This document shows positions 3,001 through 32,100 of a DNA stretch of 32,100 nt, piece after piece (position 1 is the stretch's first letter; every line of letters starts with the position of its first letter). The notes beneath the pieces were generated by a model that was given only the letters and a program-made list of their open reading frames with translations, was not told the origin of the DNA and ran no database searches. Where the stretch lies: positions 1 through 32,100 of the forward strand of contig JAUCBJ010002685.1 of the NCBI GenBank assembly GCA_032718475.1, read 5' to 3'. The DNA comes from Nemertoderma westbladi (lineage: Eukaryota > Animalia > Xenacoelomorpha). The translations under genes were made by a program, and so were the position numbers.

Positions 3001-6000
3001 TATAAAAATGTAACTGAACTAGAGTGGAAACCGAAACCCTGAATAAAATACATCAGTTTTTCTAAAACAGAATTAAGAAATTATGATTCTTTCATATATC
3101 TTTACACTTTTCTGAAATAAATCGGCACCTGAACACAATAATAACAAATACTGAAATATGTATATTATTTAAGGTACAGAGAGTAATTCACTGGACTTTT
3201 ATTACACAGAGTTTCCCTTGAATCATCTTCCTTTCCTTTTCTTAACTTTGGTTACTCGCGGGGCCGCCGTAGAACCTGCTACTAAAGTTTTCTTCACTTT
3301 TGCCATCAGTTCGGATTCCTCCGGGGGATTTCTTCGTTTCGTCGTCCGGGGTTTTGTGCGGGGTACTGCCGCTGGGGGCGTATCAGCCGCCGCTGGAGGG
3401 CCCCGTACCACCGGAGGCGTGTCGGCAAGGGAATCGACTCGCTTCCGCGGTTTCGCGTCGTCCGACACTTCGCTACTCTTCAATGTGGTTTCGCTAAACA
3501 GCGAGGAATCCTCGACGGAACTGGCGAGGTTCTGTTGGCTCTGATAAACCGGTAGACTTATTGTATCCGGTCGCCCTAGTCGTAGGTAGAGACTCCTTAT
3601 ATTAGCCCACCCACGGGGGCACTGCTCTACAAAACTCTGACAAGCTCCCATCACGTTGTCGATACTTGAATCCACTGGAAGGGCGGTGTTGGCAACCCGG
3701 CAGGTCATACAGTCGCCCCGACCAGTCATAAGTAGCGGCACGGAACCCAACGCGGCTTCAATCTCGGACTTAATCGCCTGCCGTGCAGATACATTGACGC
3801 CGATAGGGACTTTATTGGCCTTAAAGAATGCCTTGCCTAACATTGTCGGCAGTCGATGGTAAATAGATCGATCTGCTAGGAATACATCGAACATTCGACA
3901 TAGTCGGATCTTCGCTTCGTAGGGTTTGTATTCCGTAGCCAAAACTCGATGAGGAATAACCTCGCTGATTCCTTTTATATCTTCTTTTCCTAAAAGGCGA
4001 CGATAGAATTCCACAGTCGCGTCGCTGTCTTTCCCTTCGATATCTTTAACGAAGAGACAAACTTGCCGCTGTTGAGTTGGAGCGAAAGGTGAGTGATCTA
4101 CATGAAGTTGTAGCCATTTGTTATTTACGTCGGGTATTCGCTTTAGTGATATAGTAAGTTGAATACCGGTAGCTTCGCAACCATCCTCTGCTAAGAGGTT
4201 GGGCTTGTTTTTTTCTGGGGTTCGGCTTGCTAACACGTAAAGAGCCTTTATCGCTCGAGATACCTGTGATTTATCGACTAGACTGATACGTTGAAACGGG
4301 ATTTCGTCCATTTTTAAAGATCTCAAACAATTCAGTGGGTCTCTGAGTCTGATACAAGTGCACTGATATGTTATTGGGTTAGTGACGGAGGTTTATAGAC
4401 CGCCACCGCGGTGTAGCTGATATAAGTCAGAAAGTGTACCGGTAACTTACAGACTTACTGGCTAGGCTAGCCTATATTAAATTTCTCACAGTTTCTATCT
4501 ACAGATCTCAGGATCTACAATCAGACAATACAGAATTCTTAAAATACGCTGATAATTCCGCATTAACGGATCTTGCTATTTAACCTCAGTGCAATCACGC
4601 CATCTCCGCAAGTGTGCAATAAGCAATTCTGCTTAGCAGTCTGGCAGTCAGCAGTGGGTTGGTCAGTTGGTGGACCAGACAGCCAGAGTGACCTGACTGA
4701 CTATGTGCTATTGGCTCCCGGAAGTGGGATGAAAAGATGAAATCAAGGTTGCAAGGCCTTCGTGACTTGCTTGGATGGAATGTGGAATGTCAGAATGTAC
4801 TGCTGTACTGCATGTGGGCATATTTCCAATTGGAGTGTCGTTTCAGCCTATCACCTATAGGGCAGTAGGGCTTCTTTCTAAGTATTTCTGGGCTTCCAAT
4901 TGGCTTTTCCTTCAATAAGCTCACCTCATTGGCTAACACTGTCCTATCTGCCTATACTACTGTACTAGCCAAACTGCCAAAAGGTTCGGTTCAGCCTAAG
5001 TCAGTTAAGTGCCAAAAGGGATGTCGCTTGGGGAACTGTCTGAGTGAGTACCGTTACTGCTGTACTGACAGATAAAAATATTCAAACCTAAAGCTCCCTG
5101 ACAGCCTGAGCTCATCAGTATCTGCCAGTCTGCCTGTAGGCAGGTAGGCTAGGTCAATAATTATTGCGGGATGGTAATAGGTCAGTAGGCCTACTATGGT
5201 AACAGATAAAAATAGGTAGGCCTAGGGTAAGCGGGTTGTGAGCTTCAATGCGTGGTCAGTTGTAGGTACTGTAGACCCTTTCTGCCTTTGACCTTAAGAC
5301 TGATAGAGGTAGGTAGCTCTAGCAGGATAGTCCTATATTGTTTTTAAATAAGATTACGTGTGGTTCTTGTCACTGCTGCACTGTCCGTACTCACTGACAT
5401 TGACATACTGTATATAGGCCAAATAACTGAATAAGCAAGTTGACTACTGTATGTACCAATCAGTAACATTTAAAACAATTAGTAACATTTAGAAAGTAAC
5501 ATTAAAAAATTATCACCGACGCACCTTTTGGCTATGGGAGAGTGTTAGCCAATGAGGTGAGCATATTGAAGAAACAACCAATTAGAAGCCCAGAAATACT
5601 TCCATAGGCTGAAACGACACCCCAATTGGAAATATGCCTACAATAGCACTACTAAAACGGACCAGAGTGACCTGACTGACTATGCTATTGGCTCCCGGAA
5701 GTGGGATGAAATCAAGGCTGCAAGGCCTTCGTGACTTGCTTGGATGGAATGTACTGTAGGCCGCATGCGCATGCATGATACAGGGAAGGGGGATACTACA
5801 GGACCGGTAATATTTTAGGTATCGGCCTGGCATAAAATGAAAGTGAATTTAGGAGCGTTTTGATCTGTTGTTAAATTTCTTACTCATTTTGCCGCTAGAT
5901 GTGCAATAGTCATCTCAACAATATCTGCTGAATTTCCACAAAGCGCAATAATCTGCCCATAAATTGTGTACCTAAATTGCGCGCAATTCAATATATATTT

Positions 6001-9000
6001 TTATTAATATAAATTATATTTACTTGCTATTCTTTGCTTACGTGTATAAGACTCTTTAGAAATATAAATTTGTTGAAGCCTTCGTCCTTCTGACCGCGGA
6101 AATAAAGTTGGGGATACGTCACGCACACCTTATCGGTCACATCCTATAAAACAAAATTTTGTGTCTTTAAGTTTTTTGAATTAGAGAGTGAGAGAATCTT
6201 TCCAGTATGTTCATAAAGTAAGTGTGTGTGGTGGGTGCAATTAATCACAAAATTAATTATGTTTCTTATATATTGCTCGTCTAACTAATTAATTCATTAT
6301 TCATGTTTCATTACACCACTCACTACCTTGATAATAATGTTGTCGAATACATTAAAGTATACACTGTGGGTTAAACACTGACAGACACATTATCTCTAAG
6401 GATTACTCCCTTATATCTCTAAGGATTACTGGGGTATCTAAGGATTTCTGAGGTATCGGGGTAACTCGTTTACTTACCTGGTCGAGGATTCCAAGTGCTA
6501 AAACTGGCAATGCCGTATATATCATATTGTATAACATTATGAAGAATGGGTCATATATCGTCAATGCAGAGTGGCCACACAGGAATCCATACCTGTAACA
6601 TTAAGATGAAAAAAAAATGTTTTGACTGTCATACATTTGTATTACCGCGGTTCGTACATACGACGGTATCTGTTTCATAACTGTACTTAACATAACATGT
6701 TATAACATATTTTTTATTTTTAAATTTAGGTGGTCTGACATCCATATTAAATTTCAAATTATCGTATGTGATTAAACGGAACAATGGATGGGGAGAAATT
6801 TTTTTACACGTGCATGTACATTTTTTTTTACTTTTTAACAATTTTTGATGTTATATATAATTCCCCACTTACCACCATTGTAGTAGTGCGAATGAGAAAT
6901 TCTTATAAAAGAAATAGCTCAGGAATTTGCACATGCGGTAGTAGGAATATCTTCCATGAACAAGTAACAACCTTTCCAGGAATCTAAATTGTGCTATCGA
7001 GTAGTCCGAAGCCAGAACTGCTTGAAGTCCTTCCTGTCCACTTATTCCTATGCCAACGTCAGCCACTGTATTGCCACAAAAGTGAAAATATTATTATCAT
7101 CACTTCGAATATGTTTGTGCGACGTACAACAAATGTTCTATTGAAATACTAAAAAAACTATTGAAAATTGCGAGACCATTGTACTGTACATGTACAACAC
7201 TGTATATCACTGGTCTCACCCCGGTGAGGACTCAGTGCCACCTGCCAATACCAATATACTAACTTAGTTCATCTTTGTTATGATGTGTACTTACTCTTTA
7301 TCATGCTAACATCATTCGCACCATCTCCAATAGCAAGTGTTATCTTTTTCTTTTCCACCTTTACCAGTTGAATAACTAAAGACTTCTGAAGAGGTGTCAC
7401 TCGACAACATATTACTGCTTTACATTTAGTGGCCACCTTGAGAAACTTACTTTCAACGTCTTTTTGGAGGGCGAACGCAAGACTTTGTCCTACATAATAT
7501 TAAATTTGTAATTCAGGAAATTATATTCACTCTTTGAACTTTTGTAGCAAAATGTATCATTAATGTTGATATACTTCCATTATTGGGACTTACCTGTTAT
7601 TACTAAAGCAATGTCCACCACAGTATTATCGTTCTTTGTTAATTGTTTCCTTTGAATATAGCTTTCAATTAAATCATCACCTTGTTCAAGCTCATTGACA
7701 ACTTCCTAATAATTAGTAATAGTTACAAATTGATTGTTCATTATATGTGGCCTGGAGGTTGTTGCCTCAGTTTTTATTGCGAGGATCCACGTTTAAATCC
7801 GATACCGACCACGCTGGAGACCCAGTAAGTTCAAAACGCGTACGTGGTTTGGATAGACGTGAGATAAGAATTTCATTAAAAAAATAACACGATTCCTAAG
7901 TTTTACACAACCCGGTAAAAGTACGCATATGTTTGGCATTACTCCCACAATTGCGCCAATAAAAAAAGTTATTTTCGGTAAAATAAAGTTTAGAACTATT
8001 TCTGTAATCACTGTATAAATAGTTTTGTTGAAATAAAGTTTTTGACGCCTAGTTTTGATTTTGTGGGCATCTTACCTGAAGAGTTTCGCAGTTTATTTTT
8101 ATTATTTCGACTGTCTCGTTAGTGAGCAAGTTGCAGGAATAACCAATATTGATGGCCGTTTCAAGTTTATCACCAGTTAACATCCATATCCTCAGATTAG
8201 CCTATTTAATTAGCAATATTAGTTAAGAGACTTGAATCAAATTATGTTTCTACATAAGATATTTGATAATTTAAAGTTTCTAAAAGTTTATTTGATTTGT
8301 ATTTTTCCATGTGTGCATTCAACTCTCAGATGTTCTTTTAAACGACTTGAATTTGATGCCATACATAGTTTATTTTTAATATTATTAGTTTAGAATTGAC
8401 CTTTGACCTATCTCTTTATGCTTACATCAGCTAATTTTGCTAAAGTCTGTGGTACTCCATCCTGTAATTTATCTTCGATGGCTGTCGCTCCGATTAATTC
8501 CAAATCTGTTTCCAATTTTTCGTAAGCTTCATCCAATTTGGCTTCTCTATCTTCTAACGCAACACTGGCTTCCATTCTCACATTACGATCCCAGTCTTCG
8601 AACTCATCAACAGTGAGTCTCTTTTTTGCGAGTACCAAAGTTCGTAAACCAGATGAAGCGAATTGCTAAAACAACATTGTGCATTGGTTAAGGACCGAAC
8701 AACATTCGCTACGGCAGGGTATTAGTATATCTGATACTAATTGACCACCTATAACCGACTAGTTCGCGTGCCTATTATTATCGTACAACTATATCCTAGA
8801 ATTCTGATGGGTTTAATGTGTAAAATCACGATAATTAAAATAGCTAGTAGTAGTTGGTGCGTTCGTATATAAATGGGTTTCCCAAGATGATCTTCAGGTA
8901 TTCACGCTATGGAAGTAAATAGTAAATGATTATTATTAAAGAAGTAAAATTGTCAACAGCCTGATTTGATTTTCACGCATCTCACCCACCTCCGAGATAT

Positions 9001-12000
9001 GTCCCCTCCATCTCTCCAACCTGGAATGACTACCATATATTACTTACTTACTTCTAAATGTTGATTGGTCTGCTCCAAGACACCTTTTTTGTGGTTATTG
9101 ATTCCGTTATTGAGTCTTTCATATATGACACTATCTGCCCCCTTACAATATAGAGTGATTTTCCCATTCCTTTCTACGACAACTGACATTCGCTTTCTTG
9201 TGCTGTTGAAATCTAGAATGCATTTTAAATTGTACACAACATCTTTTCCCATTTCTTCCACTGTTATGCAAGACGGTGATCTTTCCTGAAATGGAATAAA
9301 ATCGATTCCTTACGAAACTAATAAATGTGAACAAAAACTATGTGATATGGTGAGTGATCTCCACCGCAAATTGACCGCAAGTTAAATAAAGTTTGTTTAT
9401 TGTATGGTTAGAAAACACCACCACTGTAAACAAGTTATTTACAAGTATTCAAAGTTAAAAAGTAAAAAAAAGATAATTTCTTGTTCAGTACCTTGAATAC
9501 ATATCCAAAATTTCTCGCTGCCTCAATGAGAGCACCCTCGTCTGGACTTTGCGCCATGTGAACTAGTTCATCCTTCTGCCATTCTGGCATTATTGTGTGA
9601 CAAAGTGCGAGACATCTGAAGAAATCATGAACATGATCTTTTTGATGCGGTTTCATGAGATCATCCAGTAGGTGTTGATCATAGAACTTGAATTTCTTCG
9701 TGAACCAGGTGGGATTAGTTTTTTCGAAGTCGATTAAAGGTTTATCCAGAATCTAACAAAGGTTGATTATATTGAATATTAATTTTCAAATAAAGATTGT
9801 AATTACTTAATCGTAATTTAAAACTAACAACTAACTCGCATCTTCTATCTAAAAATTTTCCCAGGAGCCTGACCCCCACCCATCTCGCGACCCATCCTGG
9901 CTGGCTCTTAAATCCGGACCCACCTGAGTCGGTTCATTTCCATAGACTTTGTTATTAATGCTGCACATATTGAAAGTCATTATGTTTCTAGTCAATGTTC
10001 CTGTTTTATCTGTAAATACATATTGAATTTGTCCCAGTTCTTCATTGAGTGTTGTAGTTCTCGCATTGGCTCTAATCCCTTCGTATACCATTTCATTATC
10101 CCAGTTAATAAATTTGGATTGCATTAGTCGAATAGCTTCAACACTATGAAATATTATATAAAGTATCAAAAGTCTACAATACAAAATAGCATAACATTAT
10201 TACGAGTAATGGATATTTGTAACTGTTTTGGATGATTATTATTTGGAAAGTTGTAGATATCGTTAGTCGGAGAGGTTTAGTTTATTATAGATGTTTCAAA
10301 TGTTTGGTGGAAATTATCTTACCTTACATATAAAGATATTGGAACGAGATTGTTCACTAGAATCACGTATGAGAAGAATAATAGTCCACTTTCCAAGATG
10401 AATGGGCCAGTTTCAAACGAATCCGATGGGTTGTGCCACAAGTATCGGCCATATATATGATTCCAAATCAAATGCCAGACACTATGAGTTGCGCACAATA
10501 GTACGAGGAGAAGGAATATCTGAATAAAACATGTCAAAAGTGTAGTTATTGTAATTAGAATATTGCTCGGGTACAGAACAGTACAGTGTTGAGCATGAAT
10601 ACCTACCAAATGTAAATTCGACCTCAAACTTACAAAAGCAACCATACGGTTTAGTTTGAGGTCCATATTAGTCCGTTTAAATCTCGATCCGCCACTGTTC
10701 TGCATAAGTTTGGTGTCGCTCCCAGCGAATATGACCACCCCGAAACACCACTTGGTATTCCGTAACACGCATCCCCTAAGTATGATGTTGTCATTGTTGA
10801 GCGAGTGCATCTGGTTCCCCTCTACCAATGTACCGCTGAACCTATCCAGCACATTATTGGGCGGTTCACACGTGATTATACCTTCAAATGGGAAACAATA
10901 TATTTTTTATATAACATTTTATTTTTGTTACATACAGATGTAGTTTAGTTATTCATTTAATCTTAAATATGAACATATTTATTAACTATAATAATAAAGT
11001 CACAATAACTATATGCAAATATATATAACACATTCGTGTTATATTTATATTTATTTATTTATAAGAATCATATATGGTACTTATTTAGTACAAGTTCAAA
11101 TTGTCCAATCAGGTTTCCCCAAAAAATGAGCGTAGTCGTGTTCCTGACTCAAATTAAATTTTCAGGACAGTGTTCATTTTATGCTATTAATTTGGAGGAC
11201 ATTGGTAATTAGTAAAATTATCCTGTTTAGGTTTGTGGCTAATTTCTTTTGGACATATATTTCTTATCAACTTAATTTTTCTTGATTCATTATGAGCAAA
11301 TCATGAACCATGTCTGAAACAATTTATTTCTAAAAATGAAATATTTAAGAATGAGCCTTGTAAAATTGTAATGTCCAAAAACAACTTTGGTTTCAAAAAT
11401 TGACAAGAAACGCATTGATATCTCGCGTTGAGGTTCGGCCATTAAGTTACCCAGATACCCTAATTTCTTATAAAACGTGGTGTTGATTTATAGCAAAAAC
11501 TTTAAAAATGTTTTTCTCGAAGTGATAAAAGTGGGTGTGGCTCACTTTTTAATCTATTCAAATTTTACGACTCGAGATTTTGTTGTTGATATGCAAAATA
11601 ATAATGTGTCAGTTGTTATATTGTACTACCAATAGGTTCATATTGATGAATATGTGTTTTATTGTATATCTATTATTATATTATTAGTAAAATTATAAAA
11701 TTTTTATTGTTACTCTGTTTAATTTATTGTTGCGTTTTACATTTATACCTTGGAATTTAGAGAGTTTTTCTATCGAGTCCCCAAGAGCTGCTGTTACGTT
11801 GAGACCTTGACGGCATTTTAGGTTTGTTTCTCCATCCAACTCAGCCGTTTCTATGTAAGTGAGACTGTGTTGTGCGCTACTCGATAGTATCAGCATATCA
11901 GCCGCCACAAAATCATCAGCCTTGAGTCTTACCACATCACCAACAATGACATTCTTCCAGGATGTTTTGACCAATCTGTGAAGTGTTAATGTTAATAATG

Positions 12001-15000
12001 TTCGGGATGGGATTAACATATTGATAAAAAGTTTGTGTTGAAATGAATGAAAAATTATTAATGTATAACTTGATTATATTCAAGTTTTAATTTACACAGT
12101 TATATTTACTGTAAAGTGTAATCTATACCCACACAATAATATATGTAGTGGTTTTAGGTTCTTACCGGCCTTTTTTGTTGATGATTTCCGATTTCCGATG
12201 ATTGACTACTCTATCATTTCTATGTCTCTTCTGTAAATTAACAGTTTAATACTATTTAAGAGTCTAGAACAATATTATGAATAATATTATGATATGTATC
12301 ATAATAATATGATACATATCATTACTAAGAAATACAATATTTATTACATGTTGAGAATTATATTGATTTTCCATGTCAGTGCTATTCCATTGTTTAGTTA
12401 CTTTTTTTCAATTGAGAGAGGAGCACACAGTAAATTGGTGAGTTATATTAACTATAAAATGCTCAATTATGTGACCAAAAAGTGAAGATAGAATATATGC
12501 AACTTAAGACTGCCCATTCAATAGAAGTGGATTAGGTGGGAGTGTGAGTGTCAGGGGCTATTGGCTGAGCTGGTTAGCGCTACTGATGAGGCCTGTTAGG
12601 CCGAAACGTACGTATAGCGCTGGTTCAACCCCCGGTGACGCGCTTTCTCACTTTTTCCATTTCTGAACAAAACCATAATATTACATCTTTAATTACAGTT
12701 GCATAACAACTCAACTCCAATGTAATTATTTACATTGACTGTTACGTCATGTAGTAACATCTTGTTCTTTTGCTCTTTGCTCTACTTACAATGTCATCGA
12801 TGGCATCTTTTACTGCTGTTATGGTTATGACGAATATTAATGGGGCTATAGTCGTTATTGGTGTTAGAGTAGAAATTTGTGGGATCATCTGTAATATACA
12901 AAGTTTCAATTAACTAGTAATTTATCAACTTTTATTCAATAGCAATAATTTAAGTTATTATATTATTGATTAATAAGTGAAATGTTTCTATTTAATTTAA
13001 TAATTCGCAAAACATTTTGTATGAAAATTATAATTGAAGTTTAAAACACCACAAGCACAATTAATTCTTAAGCACCGCAAACACAATTAATTTGTAAGCA
13101 CCACAAACACAATTAATTTGTAAGCACCACAAACACAATTAATTTGTAAGCACCACAAACACAATTAATTTGTAAGCACCACAAACACAATTAATTTGTA
13201 AGCACCACAAACACAATTAATTTGTAAGCACCACAAACACAATTAATTTGTAAGCACCACAAACACAATTAATTTATAAGCACCACAAACACAATTAATT
13301 TGTAAGCACCACAAACACAATTAATTTGTAAGCACCACAAACACAATTAATTTGTAAGCACCACAAACACAATTAATTTGTAAGCACCACAAACACAATT
13401 AATTTGTAAGCACCACAAACACAATTAATTTGTAAGCACCACAAACACAATTAATTTGTAAGCACCACAAACACAATTAATTTGTAAGCACCACAAACAC
13501 AATTAATTTGTAAGCACCACAAACACAATTAATTTGTAAGCACCACAAACACAATTAATTTATAAGCACCACAAACACAATTAATTTATAAGCACCACAA
13601 ACAATAAATCAAAAAAATAACATATACAGTATCAGTATCGATCTGGACAAACCGCACCATCCACCATTCCCGAACACAAGTGCCCTCCATCAACCCCCTA
13701 CCGCCATGCAGGTAGGGGTTGATGGAGTTGGAACGGTAAGAGTAGACGCCCCCTGTCGACCTCTGGCCCCCAATACGATGATTGGCTGGAGTTTATTATT
13801 ATTTAATTATTATTATTATTTAATAAAATAAATATTAATAATTATTTATTGTAAATAAAGTTATGTATAACGTTATTTTCACCATATTCGAGATATTTTA
13901 TTTAATAGCATAGTGAAAATATGTTTCACCCGATTGAATGTAGCGGGGTTTTAAAACCAAATGTATGCCATAGTATTGTACCATAAAGATCTGCGTTTGT
14001 CATGTGTTGTCTCCTGCTGCTGTTTAGTGACTATTATTATTAATTATATATAAGACTAAAATTACGTCAATCAAAAACCATAGCGACAGTAGAATTCTAG
14101 ACAATATTACTATTATTTTCCCCATTAAGTACATAGGTACATTTTGTAACCATTTAATTGTTAGCTTTTTAATTAATAACAGCACTAACAACTGTACATC
14201 GTGACTATTCTGATGTAACCATGCGATTTATTTCAGCATTGACTATTACTACCTTTTTCGTATCTGCGGTGGTAAATGTTGCACTAATTTGCATTGTCTA
14301 CGCTGCGCCGGATTTTACACCAGAACTGCTAATGCAAAGAGGGAATCTAACACCTGGAATTCAGGGTATCATTATTTTCTGGAACACGCTTAAAATAGTT
14401 GGATGGTTAGCAGTATTATATTTGGCTTTGCGGCAAATTAATTCTACGGAAACAACAACTTTATTGCTGTTATATTACGCAACATTTGGGCATCATTCTT
14501 TGTTAACATTCCTTATTAGGCTCTTAAAAACGGGAACCTTTGTTCATTACTGGGTGATAATTCTCACCTTGCAGGTTTTACTGGAGACAACATTGTTGTC
14601 CGTAACTTTATTCCCTATGGTCGCGGCGTATACTGTGTTCGCTCAGAGTGGTAACTGGCTGCCTGAGGAGTTAATAAAGCCATTCGCCTACACCGTTTAC
14701 ATTCTCACGCAAGGTGTAGCAATCACCAGCTTCCTTTGCGACCTCTACGGATTCATCTATATCGATAAGCGAATGTGCGAAGCGGTTTACGCCGGTTACA
14801 ATCATATCATGGAATACGAAGACCGTGGTTTAGCTCTCAGTCTACCGCCCTATCGCAACGTATCTCATTTCGCGAGTAATTCCTTGAGCAACCGTCAACG
14901 TTTCGCTTCGGCTCCCATCCAATACGGGTCGTATATCGCGGATATGCAGGCAGCAGCTCCCGCATCATCGAGAAAGTCAAGGAAGATAAAGTGGCGGTCG

Positions 15001-18000
15001 CCAGTGCGTTAACCGCACCCTCCCCCCCCCCCCCCCCCTCCCCTACTCGAAATTATTATAGCTACATTTTTTGCCGGTGCCTTTTTAATATTCTCGAACA
15101 TGTTCTAAAACATCTTAGATATTCTAGAAAGCAACTTAAATATTAAAGAAAACAAAGAAAATGTTCTAGAACAAGCATTTTTTGTTCTATTATTAATAAT
15201 ATACACATTTTTTGCGTAATTTTGAGAGGTTGGAATTTCGGCCGTGGCTACATTTTATTCTTATAGTTCCGCTTATTGCTACATTTTGTTCCTATAGTTC
15301 CGCCTACGGCTATATTATAATGTTATGACCGTCATTTCCTGAATGCTATAGTGGTTTTTTATTTGTTCCGTATGCAGTCGCATTTAAAAAAATTTTTATG
15401 AAATATATAGGCATATATTATGACTTATTTAGAACTAAATTGCCATAGTTGACTTCCTCACAACATTTTTCAAAAAATATTGTGTTCTAGAACACAATAT
15501 TAGCTAATTTCAGAACATTTGCTACCGCTATTAAAAAATCAACGTATTTTTTTTAAATTAGCTATATGTTCTAGAACATTATATTTTTTTATTTTATTTT
15601 GTTCTAGAATAGTATATAATACTTTTCTATTATTCTAGAACTCTTCAACGTTGCCATAGTAACAATTAATTATGTTTTAAAAATGTAGTTCTATACGGAA
15701 ATATAGCCTAAAAAAAGTTGGAAAAACTAGGCCTAGTTAGTATGAAAAATAAAAATTGTGTTCTACAACAAAAATATTTTTCAAAATTGATAGCCAGCAC
15801 GTGTTCTATAATATTTATAGAAAAATAGCAAAAAATAGCTAGTATAAAATGATAATATTTAATAAATCATGTTTTTAAAAATTTTCTAGAATACAATATT
15901 TTTTTTGAAAAATGTTGCATTGAAGTCATTGGTGATGTTACAATGAAAAAAATACATCATTTCATTAATTAATATCAAAATATCAAATGCGACTGTATGC
16001 GGAACCGAACATAGCCACCTAGCCACCTAGCCGAACATTTACAAATCTAAGTATTCATGAAATAGCTCTTAACAAGTGCTGAGGGTGGTGGGGGTGCTGA
16101 TAATTTGCCGTGACAAAGTGCCGGCGGTGCTCTCCTACTAACAAGGTTCCTCCTCCTCGAATGAATAATAGAAACAAAGTAGATGCAAAAGATCCTTTAT
16201 ATTCCGGTGAATTTAGGTTGATAAACGAGCCAGGAATGTGTTCGCGACTGAGTTTCATTAAAGGAAATTCTCCGTAGGGGCCGACGGATTTCAGGAAAAC
16301 TACGGCCAAACGGCCAAACTCGAAAAAACCATCGTAAGGATCTGATAATGACTCATATCAACGATGTTACACATTCAACCGGGAAATCCTTCACAATATT
16401 TCCGTATATCGCTCCACGCTATTTCCGAATATCGCTCCACACTACTTCCGTACATTGCTCCACACTATTTCCGTATATCGCTCCACACTTTCCGAATATC
16501 GCTCCACACTACTTCCGTACATAGCTCCATACCTTTTCCGTATATCGCTCCACACCACACTATTTCCGAATATCGCTCCACACTATTTCCGAATATCGCT
16601 CCACACTATTTCCGAATATAGCTCCACCCTACTTCCGTACATTGCTCCACACTATTTCCGAATATCGCTCCACACTATTTCCGAATTTCGCTCCACACTA
16701 CTTCCGCACATTGCTCCACACTATTTCCGTATATCGCTCCACACTACTTCCGTATATCGCTCCCCACATCGCTCCGCACTATTTCCGTACACTCCTCTAC
16801 ACTACTTCCGTGCATTGCTCCACACCACACTATTTCCGAATATCGCTCCACACTATTTCCAAATATAGCTCCACACTACTTCCGTACATTGCTCCACACT
16901 ATTTCCGTATATCGCTCCGCACCGCACTACTTCCGTACATTGCTCCACACTATTTCCGTATATAGCTCCACACTATTTCCGTATATCGCTCCACACTATT
17001 TCCGAATATCGCTCCGCTCCGCACTACTTCCGTACATTGCTCCGCACTATTTCCCTATATCGCTCCACGCTATTTCCGAATATCGCTCCACACTATTTCC
17101 GAATATCGCTCCACACTATTTCCGAATATCGCTCCGCTCCACCCTACTTCCGTACATTGCTCCACACTATTTCCGAATATCGCTCCACACTATTTCCGAA
17201 TTTCGCTCCACACTACTTCCATACATCGCTCCACACTATTTCCGAATATCGCTCCACACTATTTCCGAATATCGCTCCACACTACTTCCGAATATCGCTC
17301 CACACTACTTCCGTATATCGCTCCACACTATTTCCGTATATCGCTCCACACTATTTCCGAATATCGCTCCACACTACTTCCGAATATCGCTCCACACTAC
17401 TTCCGTATATAGCTCCACACTATTTCCGTATATCGCTCCACACTATTTCCGAATATCGCTCCACACTATTTCCGAATATCGCTCCGCTCCACCCTACTTC
17501 CGTACATTGCTCCACACTATTTCCGAATATCGCTCCACACTATTTCCGAATTTCGCTCCACACTACTTCCATACATCGCTCCACACTATTTCCGAATATC
17601 GCTCCACACTATTTCCGAATATCGCTCCACACTACTTCCGAATATCGCTCCACACTACTTCCGTATATCGCTCCACACTATTTCCGAATATCGCTCCACA
17701 CTACTTCCGTATATCGATCCACACTATTTCCGTATATAGCTCCACACTATTTCCGAATATCTCTCCCTACCTTTTCCGTATATCGCTCCACACCACACTA
17801 TTTCCGAATATCGCTCCACACTATTTCCGAATATCGCTCCACACTACTTCCGTATATCGCTCCACACTATTTCCGAATATCGCTCCACACTACTTCCGTA
17901 TATCGATCCACACTATTTCCGTATATCGCTCCACACCACACTATTTCCGAATATCGCTCCACACTATTTCCGAATATCGCTCCACACTACTTCCGAATAT

Positions 18001-21000
18001 CGCTCCACACTACTTCCGTATATCGCTCCATACTATTTCCGCATCTCGCTCCACACTATTTCCGAATATCTCTCCCTACCTTTTCCGTATATCGCTCCAC
18101 ACCACACCATTTCCAAATATAGCTCCACACTACTTCCGTACATTGCTCCACACTACTTCCGTATATCGATCCGCACTATTTCCGAATATCGCTCCACACT
18201 ATTTCCGTATATCGCTCCACACTATTTCCGTATATCGCTCCACACTATTTCCAAATATAGCTCCACACTACTTCCGTACATTGCTCCACACTATTTCCGT
18301 ATATCGCTCCGCACCGCACTACTTCCGTACATTGCTCCACACTATTTCCGTACAATGCTCCGCACTACTTCCGTACAATGCTCCGCACTACTTCCGTACA
18401 TTGCTCCGCACTATTTCCCTATATCGCTCCACGCTATTTCCGTATATCGCACCACACCACACTATTTCCGAATATCGCTCCACACTATTTCCGAATATCG
18501 CTCCGCACTACTTCCGTACATTGCTCCGCACTATTTCCGAATATCGCTCCGCACTATTTCCGAATTTCGCTCCACACTACTTCCGTACATTGCTCCACAC
18601 TATTTCCGAATTTCGCTCCACACTACTTCCGTACATTGCTCCACACTATTTCCGTATATGCTCCACACTATTTCCGTATATCGCTCCACACTACTTCCGT
18701 ACATTGCTCCACACTATTTCCGTATATGCTCCACACTATTTCCGTATATCGCTCCGCACATCGCTTCGCACTATTTCCCTATATCGCTCCACGCTATTTC
18801 CGTATATCGCACCACACCACACTATTTCCGAATATCGCTCCACACTATTTCCGAATATCGCTCCGCACTACTTCCGTACATTGCTCCGCACTATTTCCGA
18901 ATATCGCTCCGCACTATTTCCGAATATCGCTCCACACTATTTCCGTACATCGCTCCACACTATTTCCGTATATAGCTCCACACTATTTCCGAATATCTCT
19001 CCACACTATTTCCGAATATCGCTCCACACTATTTCCGTACATCGCTCCACACTATTTCCGTATATAGCTCCACACTATTTCCGTATATCGCTCCACACTA
19101 TTTCCGTACAATGCTCCACACTATTTCGTACATTCATTCAAACTATTTTTGTATATATGTAATTGTGCACACACTCTAAGGTATAACATTTGACACTAAA
19201 TTATAGACTAAAATATATTTATTATTTATTTATGTATAATTATATATTCGTATTTGTATTGTTAATTTAAGATAGTATACCATACATGTGGTTTTAAACA
19301 ATTCAATTTCGTTACTATTAAATATTCGAAATATTCCGGAACACAATATAATTGTTCTAAAATAACTACATAATTGGAAACATTTGAAAATTGAAAATGT
19401 TTTGTTCTAGAATATTTTTACTCAATATTTATCATTAATTTGTGTATTTTTGTAATCAAATAAAAAGGCAACAAAAGTGTGTAAAATAATTTATCTGAAT
19501 TTCTAAATTGTTATAATAGGATTTGGCAAAGCAGAAAAAGGATTCCACCTATTTTAAAAAGAATGACCAAGGTATACCAAAGATATTAGACTTGTTAAAA
19601 AAAACCATAGCGGAGGTTTAGGTATTAGGCCTAGCAACCTAAATAAATTACTAGTTAATTAATTAGATAAATACTTTTATTTATTGTTTTTAAGGTAATC
19701 TTGGCCTGACCAAGTTAAATTATATTGTAAGTTCAATGTTAAGTTTCTTTGTAAAGTTCCTTATATAGAGCAGTAAAATGGAATGGCATTTTTTTGCATT
19801 TTTTTACCTAGGGAAAATATAACCCATAAAGGGTTGCTTTGATTTTATTTTTGTCCCGGCGAAAAAAATATAATAAAATATTTTGTTGTCTTAAATTTTA
19901 TTTCATGTGTTAAAAGAACATCGAAGTACAAAAGGCTTTCACGTCATTTGTCAAAATTCCATTCACACACTCAAAAGTTATTGCAAATTTAGTGTCTGCA
20001 AGGCGAACTCCAAAAGGGAAGTCATTATCAAATATTGGTTTATGTTGTTAAGCCGCTCTCTAGTTAAGTAATAAATATTCGAGAACACTAAATTATTTAA
20101 CATTGAGTAAGGCAACATCCAGAGTTGAAGAGTTAAATAATATGAATAACTGTAACTATGGAAGCAATATAGTTAAATACTATAGTTCAATTTATTTTTT
20201 AGCATTATTTTAGCACCTAGCTCTATCTCTATTACTTATTACATGGGGAAAAAAACGTAGGACAAATTTTTTTCAATATAATAATAAAAATAATAAATAT
20301 AGTAATAAATACTTAATTGTTCTCTATAGTTTTTTTTATAGAACAACTCGCTGTTATAGAATAACAGCTTTAAGGCAGAGATGTTTTTATTTCTTTTAGA
20401 ACTTTAGTTTTTAAACATTGTTATTGTAATATATATATAAACACAAAAAATGCCAGTTATTTCTACAATGTGCATTACAATATGAATTATTAATAAAATG
20501 CCATGGTAGCCCTTACCTGTAGCGCAATGAGAATAAGGAAATAGGTATTTGCCGTTCGTTGGAACTGCTCGAATAAGTTAACAGGTAGGAAGGTTAATAG
20601 GGTATATTTGGCGGTGTTGATATAGTTATTCTACATAAAAAAAAGTAATTGCGAAAATAATGGGAATGTATTTTTATTAATATGGATTTACACGGAAAAA
20701 AATTAACTCTTATGTAATGCGAATTGTTGATTAATATGATATCGTACCATCTTCATATTACATAGGATTTTCAGGCAAATTTGGCGAGCGTTTGAAAATG
20801 TATCTGTATCTAATTTACACCCGCCGCCACGCAGCCAATCTCCTTCCTAATCTGGCTGGTTTGACATAATAACATCGTCCAAATGGTGCAGGTGATTTAA
20901 CCCACGCTAAAATACCGCAATTTATAAAAAAAAAACACTCTTGAAAGCTTTTTAAAAGAAAAAAAAGTAAACAGCATTACAACGTTTAGCAGACTTTTCT

Positions 21001-23594: not shown

Positions 23595-26500
23595 CTGAAA
23601 CGGATGGCGGTAGCGTACGGAGTGATTGGGCGGTAGTTCGTTTCCGATATATTATCGATATGGAGTCCAAAGTCGTTCAAACCAAAGAACCATTAGAGAA
23701 GTTCGAAGGCTTCCGATTTCGAAGCGACAATCTCCAGAAAGATGGAGGTAATATCGCCTATCTTACAGAAACATAATTACCTTATTATTATTATATGTAA
23801 ACTGGTAGAGTCATGATTTTTGTAATGTATGCTGGAAAATTAGTAACGTCATTGCCAATAGAATTCGTTAAAAAAGTAGTGAATTTCAATTAAAATTTCG
23901 TATTTATATTGAATAATTATTGAGAATATTAAATTGAAATACACTAACGTTGCTAAGTGCTACTTTTCGTTCATTTCACAGTATTTATATGTAAATTATT
24001 ATTTATATTATTATATTTGGCCTTCATTTTTACAACGATCTAGACATTTTTGTATTGCCATTATTTATTAACCAAAGTACCAAAGAGTAACACACTTTGT
24101 TTAAATTTTTGTAAATCGTTCATAAGTTGGTTGGAAGCTCTATTTATTGAGCTCACTAATTTTTGTGTTCATATAGAGAACTCTAATTAATTTCGACGGG
24201 AAATTTTTTCAAACGTAATCGTTCACATCAGATTGTCGCAATTTCTATATTTTATACACATCGCACTTCTTTCACACTCAGATGTTCGCTATATTTGGGC
24301 CAAGAGACTCTCTCCGGGAATCTGGACTGAGGTAAACGGAGATACCACGGCGAGAATATTTATCCAGTCGAACGGCGACATCCACTTCGCGTACGCGAGA
24401 CGCGAAGACGTTGGCAAGTACCGCGGATCTGCGCAACTCTACCTCAATGGTTCTCCCAGCGGTAGTATCTACCAAATGTCCACAAACAACTTACAAGTCA
24501 AGTTTAATTATGCGAAGCCATCCAAACCCGAGATAAAGGTTCCACCCAAGGGAGGGCCCGAGTGGGACCGACAACTCGTTGCAGTTAAGGGCTCTTCTTT
24601 GGTTCTAGAATGTTTCGCCTACAACTATCCGACTCCTAGTTACTCCTGGAGTAAGTCGGACGGTCGGTTCCCTTCTTTCGTTGAGTTTAATACGGTGAGT
24701 TTAATTATTGTGGAGCCAGGACTTAATGGCCAGAACTTCAGGACTTATTTTTTATAAGTCCTGAATTTAGCTTATATTTTGTAATGAAATTTTTTTTTTA
24801 AGTAATAAGAATAACTATATATATATTCGATTTAAATTAAGTAGCACTGTATTTCACGCCGGCTCGAGTGGGTATATTTCCACGGACGAGCGTAAGCGAG
24901 TGAGTGAAATATGGGACCCTGGAAGTGTAATACAGGTACTTTATTTAAATCGAATGTCGTTTTATTTTCAAGTTTCGACTGCTGATGGTAACAACCTATG
25001 TAGCGTGGGGTGACTACAAAACAAAGACCCAAATAATAAAGATCTGTACAAAACACGTGTGTTAACTTTCGTTTATCCCCCAAACTGCCTCTGTAACCTG
25101 CTCCTTTACTAACCTGCTCCTTTACTAACCTGCTCCTTTAAATGGCAATGGGACCTAATGCCTAACGCTCTTTGGGACCTAACGCGACTTTACCTCATTT
25201 TTTTGTACAGGTCCCAAAGAGCATTAGGTGCCATTGCCATTTAAAGGAGCAGGTTAGTAAAGGAGCAGCTGACAGAGGCATGTTGGGGGAACCAAAACAA
25301 TAAACGAAAGTTAACACGTTACAATATTATGCAGGTCTTTATATCATTTAGGTCTTTTGTCATTGTTATGTAGTCACCCATGTAGTGTGTGCTGTCTGCA
25401 GCCTACAGGGTGAATAAGTGAATGAGTGACACCTTTCGCGTGCCGGTACCGGTAACGACGTGTAGCTTGTGCTGTCTGCATCTGTGATGCATGACTAACT
25501 GTTAGTATTGCGCCTACCTCAGCGTGAACGTAGAAATCTGTAATAACATACTAAATGATATTGATGTGACTTTATTTCACGCCGTGTTTATATATCTCCC
25601 CCGCATACCCTTAATTGATTTTACCTTATTTCACTTCCGACTTGAAAATATAATACATAATATGGATAGTTCGTTTATATTACTAGTACCAGTAGTGAAG
25701 TAAATGGGAGTGTAGGTGTAGTTTGTTCAGACTTTGAATTTTATGTTATTTCTCCTATAGGGTCGAAGTCGTATGACCATCACTAACATTAGCCTTGGAG
25801 ATGCTGGAAAGTACCAATGCACTGCGCGTAATAGTGAGGGCACTGACCAAGTCACCTACACAGTCACTGTAGAAGGTTTGTACTTATCTCATACAATTCT
25901 AATAATATAAAAAATAATAATATCTAATATATTTAAACGTAATGAGATGCATGGAATTTAAAGAGAGTTAGTTTGACCTCGGGGTGAGTCAGAATTATTA
26001 TATTAATTTTGGTTGGGCACAGCTTTGCAAAGTCGGCAATGACGTCGAGGTGGGATCGAACTGGTGACCTCCAGGTTGGAAGTCTATCGCTCTAAAGTTC
26101 AGATAGCTGCTCAAATAAAAAGAGACCGACCTGGAAATTATATCTGATATCTTGTATGTCTGCAATTTACATTCCAATGGCATGGCGTCCCAACTGTCAA
26201 CCAATCAACTGCAGCCACTGTGCTCAAACCTATAGTACTTGGCCGTCTTATCCACTCTATTACAATGAAATGGTTGCGTATAATACATACACAACACATA
26301 GTACATAATGTATTAACCATCGGCCAAATACCAATACACAATACAATACAATGAACAATGTCTGATAAAAAAAAACTGTCATTTTTGCAGCGAAACCTGA
26401 ATGGACGCAACGTCTAGAGGATGAAATAAAGGCAATAGGGTCTACCCTAGTCCTACAATGTGGGGCCTTTGGTAGACCGGCTGTCAGCTATAGATGGTTT

Positions 26501-27813
26501 GCAGACAACGTGGAAGTAGTCGGCGAAAATATTGCCAGGTTGGTGGTAAATAGCCTAACAACATCTGTGCACAACTAGCAAACTCCCACATGGGTGTCAT
26601 ACCGGGTACTCTTCTAACCAGTTCTTCTAACTCAGCAATTTTTACCCGTTAGAGATACAAATTTGCAACGATATTAATATATATAAGGAAAAATGTATGT
26701 GGGGGTACAAGGAAAAGTTACTGGAGTACTGGCCATTAATCATGTCGTCTCCAGATGAATTCTTTATCATCATCTGATAATATATTATTTGGGTAACAAT
26801 AAACTATAATTTTCCTCTCCACATAACAAAACGCTTTATAATGAAATGCCTGTGGTTTTTTTATTGCATTATAGTCGTGGGCGGGTTAATTTCCGGTATG
26901 TGTGCTGTTGTATGAACTGAACCTCTAGCGCTGTACTGAACAGGAACACAGGCTGTAAAGATTCATGTCGTTCAGAATTTTGTCCAATAAATCAATCAAA
27001 CTTACAAATAAGGCCTACGGCTATAATAGCCGTATTCTGGGCTGCCAACAATTTATAATCTCCAGTAGTTTTGTATTTTCTCATCATAATTGTTAAATAA
27101 ATCTGTTTTTAATTTAATTTTTTGCAGACATACTGTTACTAAAGATAATAAAACGCTACACATAAGAGACTTGAACGAACAGGACTCTAAAGTATACCAG
27201 TGTATGGCGTACAACGTACACGGGACCATATTCACCCAATCTCAACTGAGAGTCCATAGTAAGTCATCTACTTCAAATAACAATTGTTATTTTGGTTTCC
27301 ATTACGAATGGGTTGGCGTGTGCGCACTCTTATTTACAGATAAGGGGGGGGGGGGGGGGGGGGGGCTTTCGACGTAAACAAAATTCATCCCTCTCCAGGT
27401 GAAATTCGACACAATTAACAGCTGATTACTCTCAAAAATTAAACCGTAACCTGTTATAGTGACATTTATTGTTTTGGTTAGAATACCGTGCCACTGTAAC
27501 CTGCTCCTTTCTTAAATGTATAATTTAACATTGAGGCGAAATATTAATTAGCCGAGATAAGATTTGCGTCCAGTTTTCCTTCTGTCTCCTTATTTTACAC
27601 CATTTATATAGATGGTGGATTAACTCATGTTACATTGGTGGGTAATATAATAAATAATTGTTTTAATTTAGATACTAAACCAATATTTGTTCACCCTCTT
27701 CCTAAAACGACACTGGGTGCCGAGAAGGGCAACATTACGTTGGAATGCGATCCGGTCGCAACACCCGAGGCTAAATTCTCTTGGTTCCATAATGGGAGAG
27801 CGGTTACTGGAGG
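23595..27813 (+). CDS. CNTN: Contactin-like Ig-superfamily cell-adhesion protein, partial (end of Ig1 to first half of Ig5); 6 exons
   Basis: Phase-compatible GT-AG exons 23595-23747, 24282-24694, 25761-25875, 26391-26538, 27128-27258, 27672-27813. Contactin-type segments GSVRSDWAVVRFRY, RIFIQSNGDIHF..REDVGKY, LECFAYNYPTPSYSW, DAGKYQCTARNSEG, KPEW..LQCGAFGRP..YRW, YQCMAYNVHGTIFTQSQLRV, GNITLECDPVATPEAKFSW. Both gene ends are missing from the window. Confidence 0.85.
25008..25379. mobile_element. Foldback/MULE-like MITE (near-complete palindrome)
   Basis: Arms of ~170 bp GGGTGACTACA..TTTGGGACCT / AGGTCCCAAA..TGTAGTCACCC around a ~28-nt spacer; flanking repeat ATGTAGCGTG (24998-25007) / ATGTAGTGTG (25380-25389). 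Confidence 0.8.
26005..26112 (-). mobile_element. tRNA-derived SINE head (degenerate)
   Basis: Minus strand reads agagcgatagacttccaacctggaggtcaccAGTTCGATCCC: tRNA-like layout with B box; A box and acceptor stem decayed. Confidence 0.5.
27337..27588. mobile_element. MITE, hAT-like (8-bp TSD), copy 2, inverted relative to 2650-2859
   Basis: Reverse complement aligns along 2650-2859; flanks CTTATTTA (27329-36) / CTTATTTT (27589-96); poly-G expansion inside the terminus. Confidence 0.7.
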
Positions 27814-30800: not shown

Positions 30801-32100
30801 CGGTTACTGGAGGGTAAGTTAATGGGAGAGCGGTTACTGGAGGGTAAGTTAATGGGAGAGCGGTTACTGGAGGGTAAGTTAATGGGAGAGCGGTTACTGG
30901 AGGGTAAGTTAATGGGAGAGCGGTTACTGGAGGGTAAGTTAATGGGAGAGCGGTTACTGGAGGGTAAGTTAATGGGAGAGCGGTTACTGGAGGGTAAGTT
31001 AATGGGAGAGCGGTTACTGGAGGGTAAGTTAATGGGAGAGCGGTTACTGGAGGGTAAGTTAATGGGAGAGCGGTTACTGGAGGGTAAGTTAATGGGAGAG
31101 CGGTTACTGGAGGGTAAGTTAATGGGAGAGCGGTTACTGGAGGGTAAGTTAATGGGAGAGCGGTTACTGGAGGGTAAGTTAATGGGAGAGCGGTTACTGG
31201 AGGGTAAGTTAATGGGAGAGCGGTTACTGGAGGGTAAGTTAATGGGAGAGCGGTTACTGGAGGGTAAGTTAATGGGAGAGCGGTTACTGGAGGGTAAGTT
31301 AATGGGAGAGCGGTTACTGGAGGGTAAGTTAATGGGAGAGCGGTTACTGGAGGGTAAGTTAATGGGAGAGCGGTTACTGGAGGGTAAGTTAATGGGAGAG
31401 CGGTTACTGGAGGGTAAGTTAATGGGAGAGCGGTTACTGGAGGGTAAGTTAATGGGAGAGCGGTTACTGGAGGGTAAGTTAATGGGAGAGCGGTTACTGG
31501 AGGGTAAGTTAATGGGAGAGCGGTTACTGGAGGGTAAGTTAATGGGAGAGCGGTTACTGGAGGGTAAGTTAATGGGAGAGCGGTTACTGGAGGGTAAGTT
31601 AATGGGAGAGCGGTTACTGGAGGGTAAGTTAATGGGAGAGCGGTTACTGGAGGGTAAGTTAATGGGAGAGCGGTTACTGGAGGGTAAGTTAATGGGAGAG
31701 CGGTTACTGGAGGGTAAGTTAATGGGAGAGCGGTTACTGGAGGGTAAGTTAATGGGAGAGCGGTTACTGGAGGGTAAGTTAATGGGAGAGCGGTTACTGG
31801 AGGGTAAGTTAATGGGAGAGCGGTTACTGGAGGGTAAGTTAATGGGAGAGCGGTTACTGGAGGGTAAGTTAATGGGAGAGCGGTTACTGGAGGGTAAGTT
31901 AATGGGAGAGCGGTTACTGGAGGGTAAGTTAATGGGAGAGCGGTTACTGGAGGGTAAGTTAATGGGAGAGCGGTTACTGGAGGGTAAGTTAATGGGAGAG
32001 CGGTTACTGGAGGGTAAGTTAATGGGAGAGCGGTTACTGGAGGGTAAGTTAATGGGGGAGCGGTTACTGGAGGGTAAGTTAATGGGAGAGCGGTTACTGG
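27790..32100 (+). repeat. 30-bp tandem array (AATGGGAGAGCGGTTACTGGAGG|GTAAGTT), >=143 copies, spanning the contactin exon/5' splice site
   Basis: The first unit is the real exon end (NGRAVTGG) plus donor. The array is nearly invariant to the window end, with variants only in a few units near 27880-28040 and one near 32057. Confidence 0.98.

What the first reader, a model, noticed from the sequence alone, without database searches (positions are those of the whole stretch)
12537..12658. Hammerhead ribozyme grafted into a tRNA-type Pol III promoter: candidate self-cleaving SINE/retrozyme family
Seen: a fully canonical minimal type I hammerhead (7-bp stem I, CUGAUGA, 5-bp stem II, GAAA, GUA cleavage triplet). 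It lies exactly between a consensus A box (12562-73) and B box (12622-32), starts with a tRNA-like GGGGCTA and ends in TTTTT, giving a self-contained ~103-nt Pol III transcript. Stem I can extend: TGAGCT/GGTTCA, GGGG/CCCC, GTGTCA/TGACGC, GTGAG/CTCAC, so the promoter boxes double as the ribozyme's distal helix. Established: minimal hammerheads with a palindromic stem III (here ACGTACGT) occur in Penelope-like elements and retrozymes and cleave as dimers. Inference: this is a tRNA-hammerhead chimera, possibly a non-autonomous element mobilised by a Penelope-type RT, or a dimerisation-gated small RNA. I do not know of this exact architecture being described. It lies antisense in an ATP8B intron, so it would not cut that pre-mRNA.
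Basis: partly seen in the sequence, partly recalled or inferred. Interest (0 to 1): 0.88.

Follow-up and report, generated by a model that had tools for sequence, protein, structure and literature searches.

The report
Retrozyme with promoter split by ribozyme
This is a partial copy of a very abundant 341-base repeat of an animal genome in which a hammerhead self-cutting motif sits between the two halves of a predicted tRNA-type promoter; it likely spreads as a circular RNA copied by a Penelope-type enzyme, and would offer a testable answer to how such repeats get transcribed.

Summary
Observation confirmed: a complete type I hammerhead (cut after A12614) lies between an A box (12562-73) and a B box (12622-32), antisense in an ATP8B-type intron. 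But it is not a self-contained 103-nt SINE. Laying public runs shows a repeat at 12486-~12722 hit by 1,427-2,587 contigs per DNA run. Copies share 68 nt upstream of the predicted Pol III start. One contig closes into a 341-nt head-to-tail unit. Copies are ragged, with inverted and partial-tandem joints like Penelope insertions, and the family occurs in a run with spliced contigs. It fits metazoan non-LTR retrozymes, and a Pol III promoter plus hammerhead is known from schistosome Sm-alpha. The twist I did not find in print is the order A-hammerhead-B: cleavage would separate the boxes, so only junction-spanning copies carry a whole promoter. A second, decayed repeat at ~7747-7987 has the Sm-alpha order A-B-hammerhead. 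Against Pol III driving the cycle: a conserved T6 lies 19 nt after the B box. Cleavage, RNA circularity, Pol III use and the Penelope partner are untested. Verdict: new variant of a known kind.

The parts
12486..12722 (+). Partial (about 237 of 341 nt) dispersed copy of a high-copy hammerhead repeat; right end approximate
   Evidence: Summed contig depth 1,026-11,648 times the unique flank in 3 of 3 DNA runs; rises at 12486 and is near flank level by 12720-40
12522..12665 (+). Long self-paired rod with the hammerhead at its tip
   Evidence: MFE -61.6 kcal/mol, z -2.5; 52 pairs, 9 G-U, -59.8 with the hammerhead fold enforced
12554..12557 (+). G-run, predicted Pol III start (about 7-8 nt before the A box)
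   Evidence: Sequence; start site inferred from recalled tRNA promoter geometry, not shown
12562..12573 (+). A box; also the 5' strand of the distal stem I extension
   Evidence: Only strict A box in the window; 1 variable site of 12 (12569 G/A), which keeps both the purine consensus and the pair
12576..12582 (+). Hammerhead stem I, 5' strand
   Evidence: 7 Watson-Crick pairs with 12615-21; no listed variant
12583..12606 (+). Catalytic core CUGAUGA, stem II (4-5 bp) and GAAA
   Evidence: listed variants only at N7 (12587), loop II (12596) and 12602 (G-C to G-U)
12606..12614 (+). 2-bp stem III with palindromic loop and GUA triplet; predicted cut after 12614
   Evidence: Two copies co-fold as a double hammerhead with an 8-bp intermolecular stem III, -42.8 versus -15.9 kcal/mol per monomer
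12615..12621 (+). Hammerhead stem I, 3' strand; predicted 5' end of the cleaved monomer
12622..12632 (+). B box; also the 3' strand of the distal stem I extension
   Evidence: 0 listed variants in 11 positions
12651..12656 (+). T-run (T5 in this copy, T6 in the family majority); predicted Pol III terminator
   Evidence: 12651 reads T in about 99% of summed depth in 3 of 3 DNA runs and in the 341-nt contig; the only T>=4 run in the copy
12231..12789 (-). Host intron of an ATP8B-type P4-ATPase; the ribozyme strand is antisense to it
   Evidence: Flanking exons with GT/AG ends; best PDB match ATPase IC (ATP8B1 by recalled naming), E 3e-31; homologs named ATPase ID / 8B
7747..7987 (+). Decayed copy of a second repeat family with the order A box, B box, type I hammerhead (cut after 7842)
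   Evidence: The only decayed-hammerhead hit besides 12583, against 0 in 8 shuffles; contigs in X4, X5 and X6 show an intact B box and the two core letters that this copy lacks (loose ends before 7817)

Best explanation
This is a truncated, dispersed copy of an abundant 341-nt hammerhead repeat that is likely a non-LTR retrozyme: tandem transcripts would self-cleave after A12614 (probably as dimers), the monomers would be ligated into circles, and a Penelope-type reverse transcriptase would copy across the junction into new sites. The A and B boxes likely form a tRNA-type Pol III promoter that straddles the cut, so a linear monomer would start with the B box and end with the A box, and only DNA copies spanning the junction would hold a complete promoter. 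Shown: the motifs, the high copy number, the 341-nt head-to-tail contig, ragged, inverted and partial-tandem copies, and presence in a run with spliced contigs. Inferred: cleavage, ligation, the Penelope partner and Pol III use. Unit-length RNA would need read-through of the T6 run or host Pol II read-through of arrays; a terminated Pol III product (about 103 nt) cannot by itself regenerate the unit.
For: Hammerhead beyond chance. 1,427, 1,663 and 2,587 contigs laid in runs X1-X3, confined to 12486-~12722. X5 record of 371 nt: 12611-12703, then 125 other letters, then 12486-12640, with a 30-nt terminal overlap, giving a closed 341-nt unit. This lies in the 150-450 bp retrozyme range (PMC7229834) and near Sm-alpha's 335 bp (PMC8490949). 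Dispersed copies keep the intact cleavage junction with variable ends (listed starts 12497-12562, ends 12667-12704, tables 7 and 8). A linear monomer cut at 12614/15 could not template these. 6 of 15 shown joints change strand and 3 of 15 go back, matching the inverted 5'-truncated copies and partial tandems of PLE insertions (bioRxiv 2021.04.23.441226). Boxes and stem I are conserved (A box 1 of 12, B box 0 of 11, stem I 0 of 16 positions variable) while the rod arms vary (10 of 26, 11 of 28). Variant 12610 A>G would keep the palindrome paired as U-G. X4 has joints with CT..AC ends (2 of 4 joints upstream of the RSL1D1-like ORF) and holds element contigs (14 contigs at 12561). A sister family in the same window has A-B-hammerhead, so tRNA-type boxes beside hammerheads recur in this genome.
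Against: The T6 run 19 nt after the B box is the family majority and is in the 341-nt contig, and would stop Pol III. The boxes pair with each other as the stem I extension, so their conservation may be structural. The closed unit rests on one contig of depth 5.5 from a run whose RNA status is a guess and whose label is another organism; a DNA tandem array gives the same contig. No target-site duplication was found. Only 12 of 20 variants at paired rod positions keep pairing, all transitions and unphased, so the rod has no real covariation support. No Rfam hit at gathering score. No genome was held, so no PLE partner or shared termini were tested. The X4 contigs are unstranded and may come from copies inside host transcripts.
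Confidence: 0.62

Rival explanations
1. An ordinary retrozyme or Penelope terminal-repeat derivative transcribed by host read-through; the A and B boxes are relics or look-alikes kept only because they pair as the distal stem I helix.
For: The boxes pair with each other over 8 bp. The T6 would end Pol III transcripts early. No cloverleaf: relaxed ARAGORN calls have broken stems, and at a lower cut-off it also calls an AT-rich decoy. The 65-nt unit seen in X4 and X6 keeps the hammerhead but has no B box. A review states that metazoan retrozymes seem to lack promoters (PMC7761336).
Against: Both strict boxes in the right order arose in 5e-6 of shuffles. A G-rich start sits at the expected offset. 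Unpaired box positions also show no listed variant. A second family here has A-B-hammerhead with tRNA-like spacing.
Confidence: 0.2
2. A transcribed satellite that spreads by DNA-level tandem amplification and recombination, with no circular RNA intermediate.
For: The 341-nt closed contig is equally explained by a tandem DNA array. A homogeneous high-depth subfamily shares its alleles (12542C, 12545C, 12610G, 12660C). The 2026 preprint allows local satellite-type amplification.
Against: Many dispersed copies with long unique flanks, ragged ends and strand-switch joints, and an intact catalytic core across copies.
Confidence: 0.1
3. One reading: a self-contained ~103-nt Pol III SINE or small RNA (12554-12656) is the mobile unit.
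For: Start, boxes and terminator are all present and conserved.
Against: Copies share 68 nt upstream of the start and at least 47 nt beyond the T-run, and a 341-nt unit exists. No A-tail or target-site duplication. Self-cleavage would cut such a transcript into 61 + 42 nt.
Confidence: 0.05

Closest known systems
Metazoan non-LTR retrozymes (Cervera & de la Pena 2020, PMC7229834, parts 2-4 of 6 read; Li, Clavereau & Pollet 2026, bioRxiv 10.64898/2026.07.22.740005, abstract, most of Results, Discussion read)
   Same: Type I hammerhead with short palindromic stem III, unit of 150-450 nt, thousands of copies, monomers and multimers, self-paired fold, proposed PLE mobilisation.
   Different: These are described as lacking promoters (PMC7761336 passage); the 2026 preprint has 0 hits for Pol III, tRNA or promoter. 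Here conserved A and B boxes flank the ribozyme. No large target-site duplication was found for this copy.
Schistosome Sm-alpha / Sj-alpha SINE-like hammerhead repeats (passages of PMC6765202, PMC2770079, PMC8490949; Ferbeyre 1998 itself not held)
   Same: Pol III-type promoter plus type I hammerhead in a ~335-bp repeat; tRNA-related; needs junction-spanning or tandem copies to propagate.
   Different: The review describes a promoter followed by the hammerhead, with the whole promoter at the 3' end of the cleaved monomer. Here the cut falls between A and B and a T6 follows B. The second family at ~7747-7987 has the Sm-alpha order.
Penelope-like element pLTR minimal hammerheads (Cervera & de la Pena 2014, PMC4209133, parts 1-2 of 4 read)
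   Same: Palindromic stem III, dimer activity, ragged, inverted and partial-tandem insertions.
   Different: PLE min-HHRs have helix II of 7-8 bp, helix I of 4-5 bp and an extra base before stem II. This one has helix II of 4-5 bp, helix I of 7 bp plus an extension and no extra base, which is the canonical layout.
TRIMp3 elements Helenus / Ajax / Cassandra (PMC10886601, passages and start of abstract)
   Same: Small-RNA-gene sequence embedded inside a non-autonomous retroelement rather than at a SINE 5' end.
   Different: They are LTR-type elements and are not described with a ribozyme (the word occurs only in a reference title).

Membership tests
Metazoan non-LTR retrozyme | Type I hammerhead with intact core | tested here: met
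Metazoan non-LTR retrozyme | Short head-to-tail unit of about 150-450 nt | tested here: met
   341-nt closed contig in X5; one contig only
Metazoan non-LTR retrozyme | Multi-copy in the genome | tested here: met
   1,427-2,587 contigs per DNA run, 3 of 3 runs; not an exact copy number
Metazoan non-LTR retrozyme | Non-coding, GC under 50% | tested here: met
   No stop-free frame of 60 aa or more over the copy; 42% GC for 12480-12730; the other 125 nt of the unit were not seen
Metazoan non-LTR retrozyme | Large target-site duplication when present | tested here: inconclusive
   None found; best a 6-nt AT-rich match out of register; the feature is optional in PMC7229834
Metazoan non-LTR retrozyme | Expressed as circular RNA | tested here: inconclusive
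   Element in a run with spliced contigs (X4) and a closed contig in an RNA-guess run (X5); contigs cannot tell an RNA circle from a DNA tandem
Metazoan non-LTR retrozyme | Self-cleavage | not testable with these tools
   Needs an in vitro assay
Metazoan non-LTR retrozyme | Co-occurring or homologous PLE | not testable with these tools
   No genome held; PLE-like joints only
Sm-alpha-type Pol III hammerhead repeat | Whole Pol III promoter (A then B) upstream of the hammerhead | tested here: not met
   The B box lies 3' of the cut; met by the second family at ~7747-7987. The Sm-alpha order is taken from a review
Sm-alpha-type Pol III hammerhead repeat | Derived from a recognisable tRNA | tested here: inconclusive
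   No tRNA at default ARAGORN or in Rfam; only poor pseudogene calls at 80% score
Classical tRNA-derived SINE | Element 5' end at the Pol III start | tested here: not met
   Shared sequence from 12486 and further upstream
Classical tRNA-derived SINE | Fixed 3' end with A-rich or simple-repeat tail and target-site duplication | tested here: not met
   3' ends scattered over 12667-12704 and beyond; no duplication at this copy
PLE pLTR minimal hammerhead | Helix II 7-8 bp, helix I 4-5 bp, extra base before stem II | tested here: not met
   against PMC4209133
PLE pLTR minimal hammerhead | Adjacent RT / GIY-YIG reading frame in full-length copies | not testable with these tools
   No genome held; this copy lies inside a 559-nt intron, so none is adjacent here

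The most novel reading that the evidence does not exclude
A retrozyme with a split promoter: the ribozyme cuts between the A and B boxes of a working Pol III promoter, so the promoter exists only in copies that were reverse-transcribed across the ligated junction, tying transcription to the circular route. The terminated 103-nt Pol III RNA may also serve as the partner strand that activates dimer cleavage of longer read-through transcripts. With the A-B-hammerhead sister family in the same genome, this would make tRNA-type promoters a recurring answer to how animal retrozymes are so highly expressed.
Probability: 0.28. Interest if true: 0.72.

Novelty: new variant of a known kind. Interest (0 to 1): 0.47.

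Why it matters
Animal retrozymes are abundant RNAs whose promoter is unknown; a review says they seem to have none (PMC7761336). A family with conserved A and B boxes wrapped around the ribozyme, beside a sister family in the Sm-alpha order, gives a direct test: mutate the boxes while keeping the helix, and map the starts and ends. If the boxes work, one stretch of sequence is at once a DNA promoter and an RNA helix of a ribozyme. If they do not, this is one more retrozyme family. This intronic copy itself is antisense and probably inert for the host gene.

Tried and rejected
No genome is held, so no genome-wide BLAST or PLE search was possible. Rfam at gathering score: 0 hits in the window; E-value mode gave a weak Hammerhead_3 match at 12545-12612 and no ribozyme match at 7700-8000. 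No second copy of the element lies in the window. Pattern scans for relatives: 2 viral and 105 metagenome loci matched core+GAAAC+B box, and 0 of 107 fold as a type I hammerhead with stem II >=3 and stem I >=5. 0 of 73 viral loci matching A box+core+B box held one. There were 0 exact matches of the family core in prokaryote genomes. The run search listed no RNA holder on record, which is no evidence on expression. In one search, X5 gave no cover of the RSL1D1-like gene, X6 gave no piece over 12620-12670, and most ATP8B exons were uncovered in all four runs; these blanks are not used as evidence. Idea that the ribozyme is an intron in a tRNA anticodon arm (stem I as anticodon stem, CUGAUGA as loop): by recalled tRNA numbering the spacings are about 2-3 nt short before and 5-6 nt short after, and relaxed ARAGORN folds are poor; not adopted. 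Rod covariation is too weak (12 of 20, unphased; my notebook's 11 of 19 was a miscount). The phylum of the animal was not resolved. The look-ups of earlier findings by sequence and by place returned nothing. Not readable: Ferbeyre 1998, Lunse 2017 and the supplement of PMC7229834, whose retrozyme sequences may contain similar boxes.

Full report
Observation. A descriptor scan found one intact type I hammerhead in the window, core at 12583, and none in 200 dinucleotide shuffles; the strict A box at 12562 and the + strand B box at 12622 are also unique in the window. With the ribozyme fixed and the arms shuffled, both strict boxes appeared in 5e-6 of 200,000 shuffles; this does not correct for the many hammerhead families a scan will meet. 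The pairing extends to a rod from 12522 to 12665 (z -2.5), and the hammerhead-competent fold costs 1.8 kcal/mol against the MFE. Two copies co-fold as a double hammerhead through the 8-nt palindrome. Rfam gave nothing at gathering score and only a weak Hammerhead_3 match; ARAGORN found no tRNA. The host intron is 12231-12789 on the minus strand of an ATP8B-type flippase, so the ribozyme strand is antisense, as stated.

Ribozyme class. By the definitions in PMC4209133 (parts 1-2 of 4 read), helix I of about 6 bp, helix II of 4 bp and a 1-2 bp helix III with a palindromic loop make the canonical metazoan type I motif. PLE minimal motifs have a longer helix II, a shorter helix I and an extra base. 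This element is of the first kind. Loop-loop tertiary contacts were not tested.

What the element is. No genome is held, so I used public runs: 7 were listed, 5 holding the stretch or part of it. In three DNA runs (two samples; the best may be the window's own source) 1,427, 1,663 and 2,587 contigs were laid on 12300-12900, almost all on 12486-~12722, at 1,026 to 11,648 times the flank depth (the tool warns this is no copy number). Loose ends before 12486 agree between runs, so the family continues upstream. Run X5 holds a 371-nt contig that reads 12611-12703, then 125 other letters, then 12486-12640, with 30 nt repeated at its two ends: a closed 341-nt unit. The window copy is thus about 237 nt of that unit, centred on the cleavage junction. 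Other dispersed copies with long unique flanks start between 12497 and 12562 and end between 12667 and 12704 or later. Of 15 joints shown (22 hidden), 6 switch strand, 3 go back and 6 skip. Four of the six strand switches lie 28-100 nt off the rod's symmetry sum and two lie within about 20 nt of it. Inverted 5'-truncated copies and partial tandems are described for PLE insertions (bioRxiv 2021.04.23.441226, passages). No target-site duplication was found.

Conservation. Among the 40 variant rows shown (3 hidden), variable positions number 1 of 12 in the A box, 0 of 11 in the B box, 0 of 16 in stem I with its upstream linker, 6 of 32 in the core with stems II and III, and 10 of 26 and 11 of 28 in the rod arms. 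The core variants fall at N7, loop II, a G-C to G-U change and the stem III loop. The A-box variant keeps both the purine consensus and the pair, so it does not separate promoter from structure. In the rod, 12 of 20 variants at paired sites keep pairing and 8 break it; this is weak. Position 12651 is T in about 99% of depth, so the family has T6, and so does the 341-nt contig.

Expression. X4, labelled DNA? by the tool, has joints upstream of the RSL1D1-like ORF, 2 of 4 with CT..AC ends, and so behaves as RNA. It holds element contigs (14 at 12561, about 90% with 12559A and 12569A). Contigs give no strand, start or level, and some may be copies inside host transcripts. In X5 the only two long pieces among 9 records laid on 3100-13040 are the 341-nt unit and the 7817-7987 repeat. 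X5 is an RNA guess under another organism label, so trace DNA of high-copy repeats is not excluded.

A sister family. The loose ends before 7817 in X4, X5 and X6 show an intact B box and end in CTGAT, which with the GA at 7817-18 gives a hammerhead core. The window copy has an A-box-like 12-mer at 7747, a decayed B box at ~7790, a 6-bp stem I (7808-13/7843-48), stem II with a 6-nt loop, a palindromic stem III and GUA at 7840-42. It is the only decayed-hammerhead hit besides 12583, against 0 in 8 shuffles. This family has the order A-B-hammerhead.

Mechanism. I commit to a non-LTR retrozyme (0.62): tandem transcript, cleavage after A12614, ligation to a circle, and PLE-type reverse transcription across the junction. 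Copies that keep the junction intact need a circular or uncleaved multimeric template; this is inference from the copy shapes. The boxes straddle the cut, so a linear monomer would begin with B and end with A, and a whole promoter exists only in junction-spanning DNA. The weak point is the T6: Pol III from 12554 would give about 103 nt (61 + 42 after cleavage), which cannot supply the 68 nt that copies share upstream of the start. Unit-length RNA therefore needs read-through of T6 or host Pol II transcription. The main rival (0.2) is that the boxes are kept only as the distal stem I helix.

Known systems. Retrozymes: PMC7229834 and the 2026 preprint describe the unit sizes, circles and PLE link; PMC7761336 says they seem to lack promoters (passages). 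Sm-alpha is a tRNA-Gln-related SINE-like repeat with a hammerhead (PMC2770079, passages), apparently Pol III-transcribed, with the promoter followed by the ribozyme (PMC6765202, passages). So promoter plus hammerhead is known. I found no description of a hammerhead between the A and B boxes in nine literature searches (listings, with the papers named here opened; PMC10886601, PMC3653858 and PMC6155905 seen as passages). Ferbeyre 1998, Lunse 2017 and the PMC7229834 supplement could not be read and may bear on this. Earlier AI notes of this scan report related designs in other genomes; they are leads, not support. Scans of viral, metagenome and prokaryote collections found no relative, as expected for an animal repeat.

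Verdict. A real, family-wide feature and a new variant of a known kind; interest 0.47. The split-promoter reading has probability about 0.28 and would deserve about 0.72.

Noticed in passing
window 7747-7987 (+): Second repeat family with A box, B box, then a type I hammerhead (Sm-alpha order); decayed here, core restored in contigs of X4, X5 and X6; the X5 contig is 441 nt. The end of its B box also pairs as a stem I extension.
   Followed up: partly
window 12574-12619, runs X4 and X6: A 65-nt closed unit (46 nt of hammerhead plus 19 other letters that begin like the A box, no B box) appears in two runs of different studies, at depth 241 and 153. It is not among the joints shown for the DNA runs, one sample of which is shared with X6, but 22 rows were hidden. 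Tandem mini-array or tiny circle: unexplained.
   Followed up: partly
L031, L042, L050, L085, L018 and L013, L037, L047, L066 (metagenome loci): 9 of 107 pattern hits fold as type III hammerheads followed by a T-loop/B-box-like motif, in two sequence families repeated across contigs.
   Followed up: no
window 3226-4311 (-): RSL1D1-like ORF (PF00687) with no intron in the coding part, strongly covered in X4 and X6, with splice-like joints upstream at 4416-5088.
   Followed up: partly
window 14173-15009 (+): 279-aa stop-free frame with several hydrophobic stretches and no Pfam match, nested antisense within the ATP8B-type gene span.
   Followed up: no
window 13047-13603, 16392-19127, 27790-32100: Tandem arrays of 26, 23 and 30 nt; the 30-nt array (99% identical, over 143 copies) begins at what looks like an exon donor of the Ig-domain gene and is stop-free on the minus strand.
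   Followed up: no
window 4680-4800 and 5660-5760; also 5560-5640 versus 4860-4950: Repeated and inverted segments upstream of the RSL1D1-like gene, also multi-contig in X4.
   Followed up: no
window ~26050-26100 (-): B-box-containing stretch, probably another tRNA-type SINE copy; no hammerhead detected there.
   Followed up: partly
run X4, joint 7891 to 12574: One contig (depth 165, shorter side 22 nt) joins the two hammerhead families; it may be a chance short match or a chimera.
   Followed up: no
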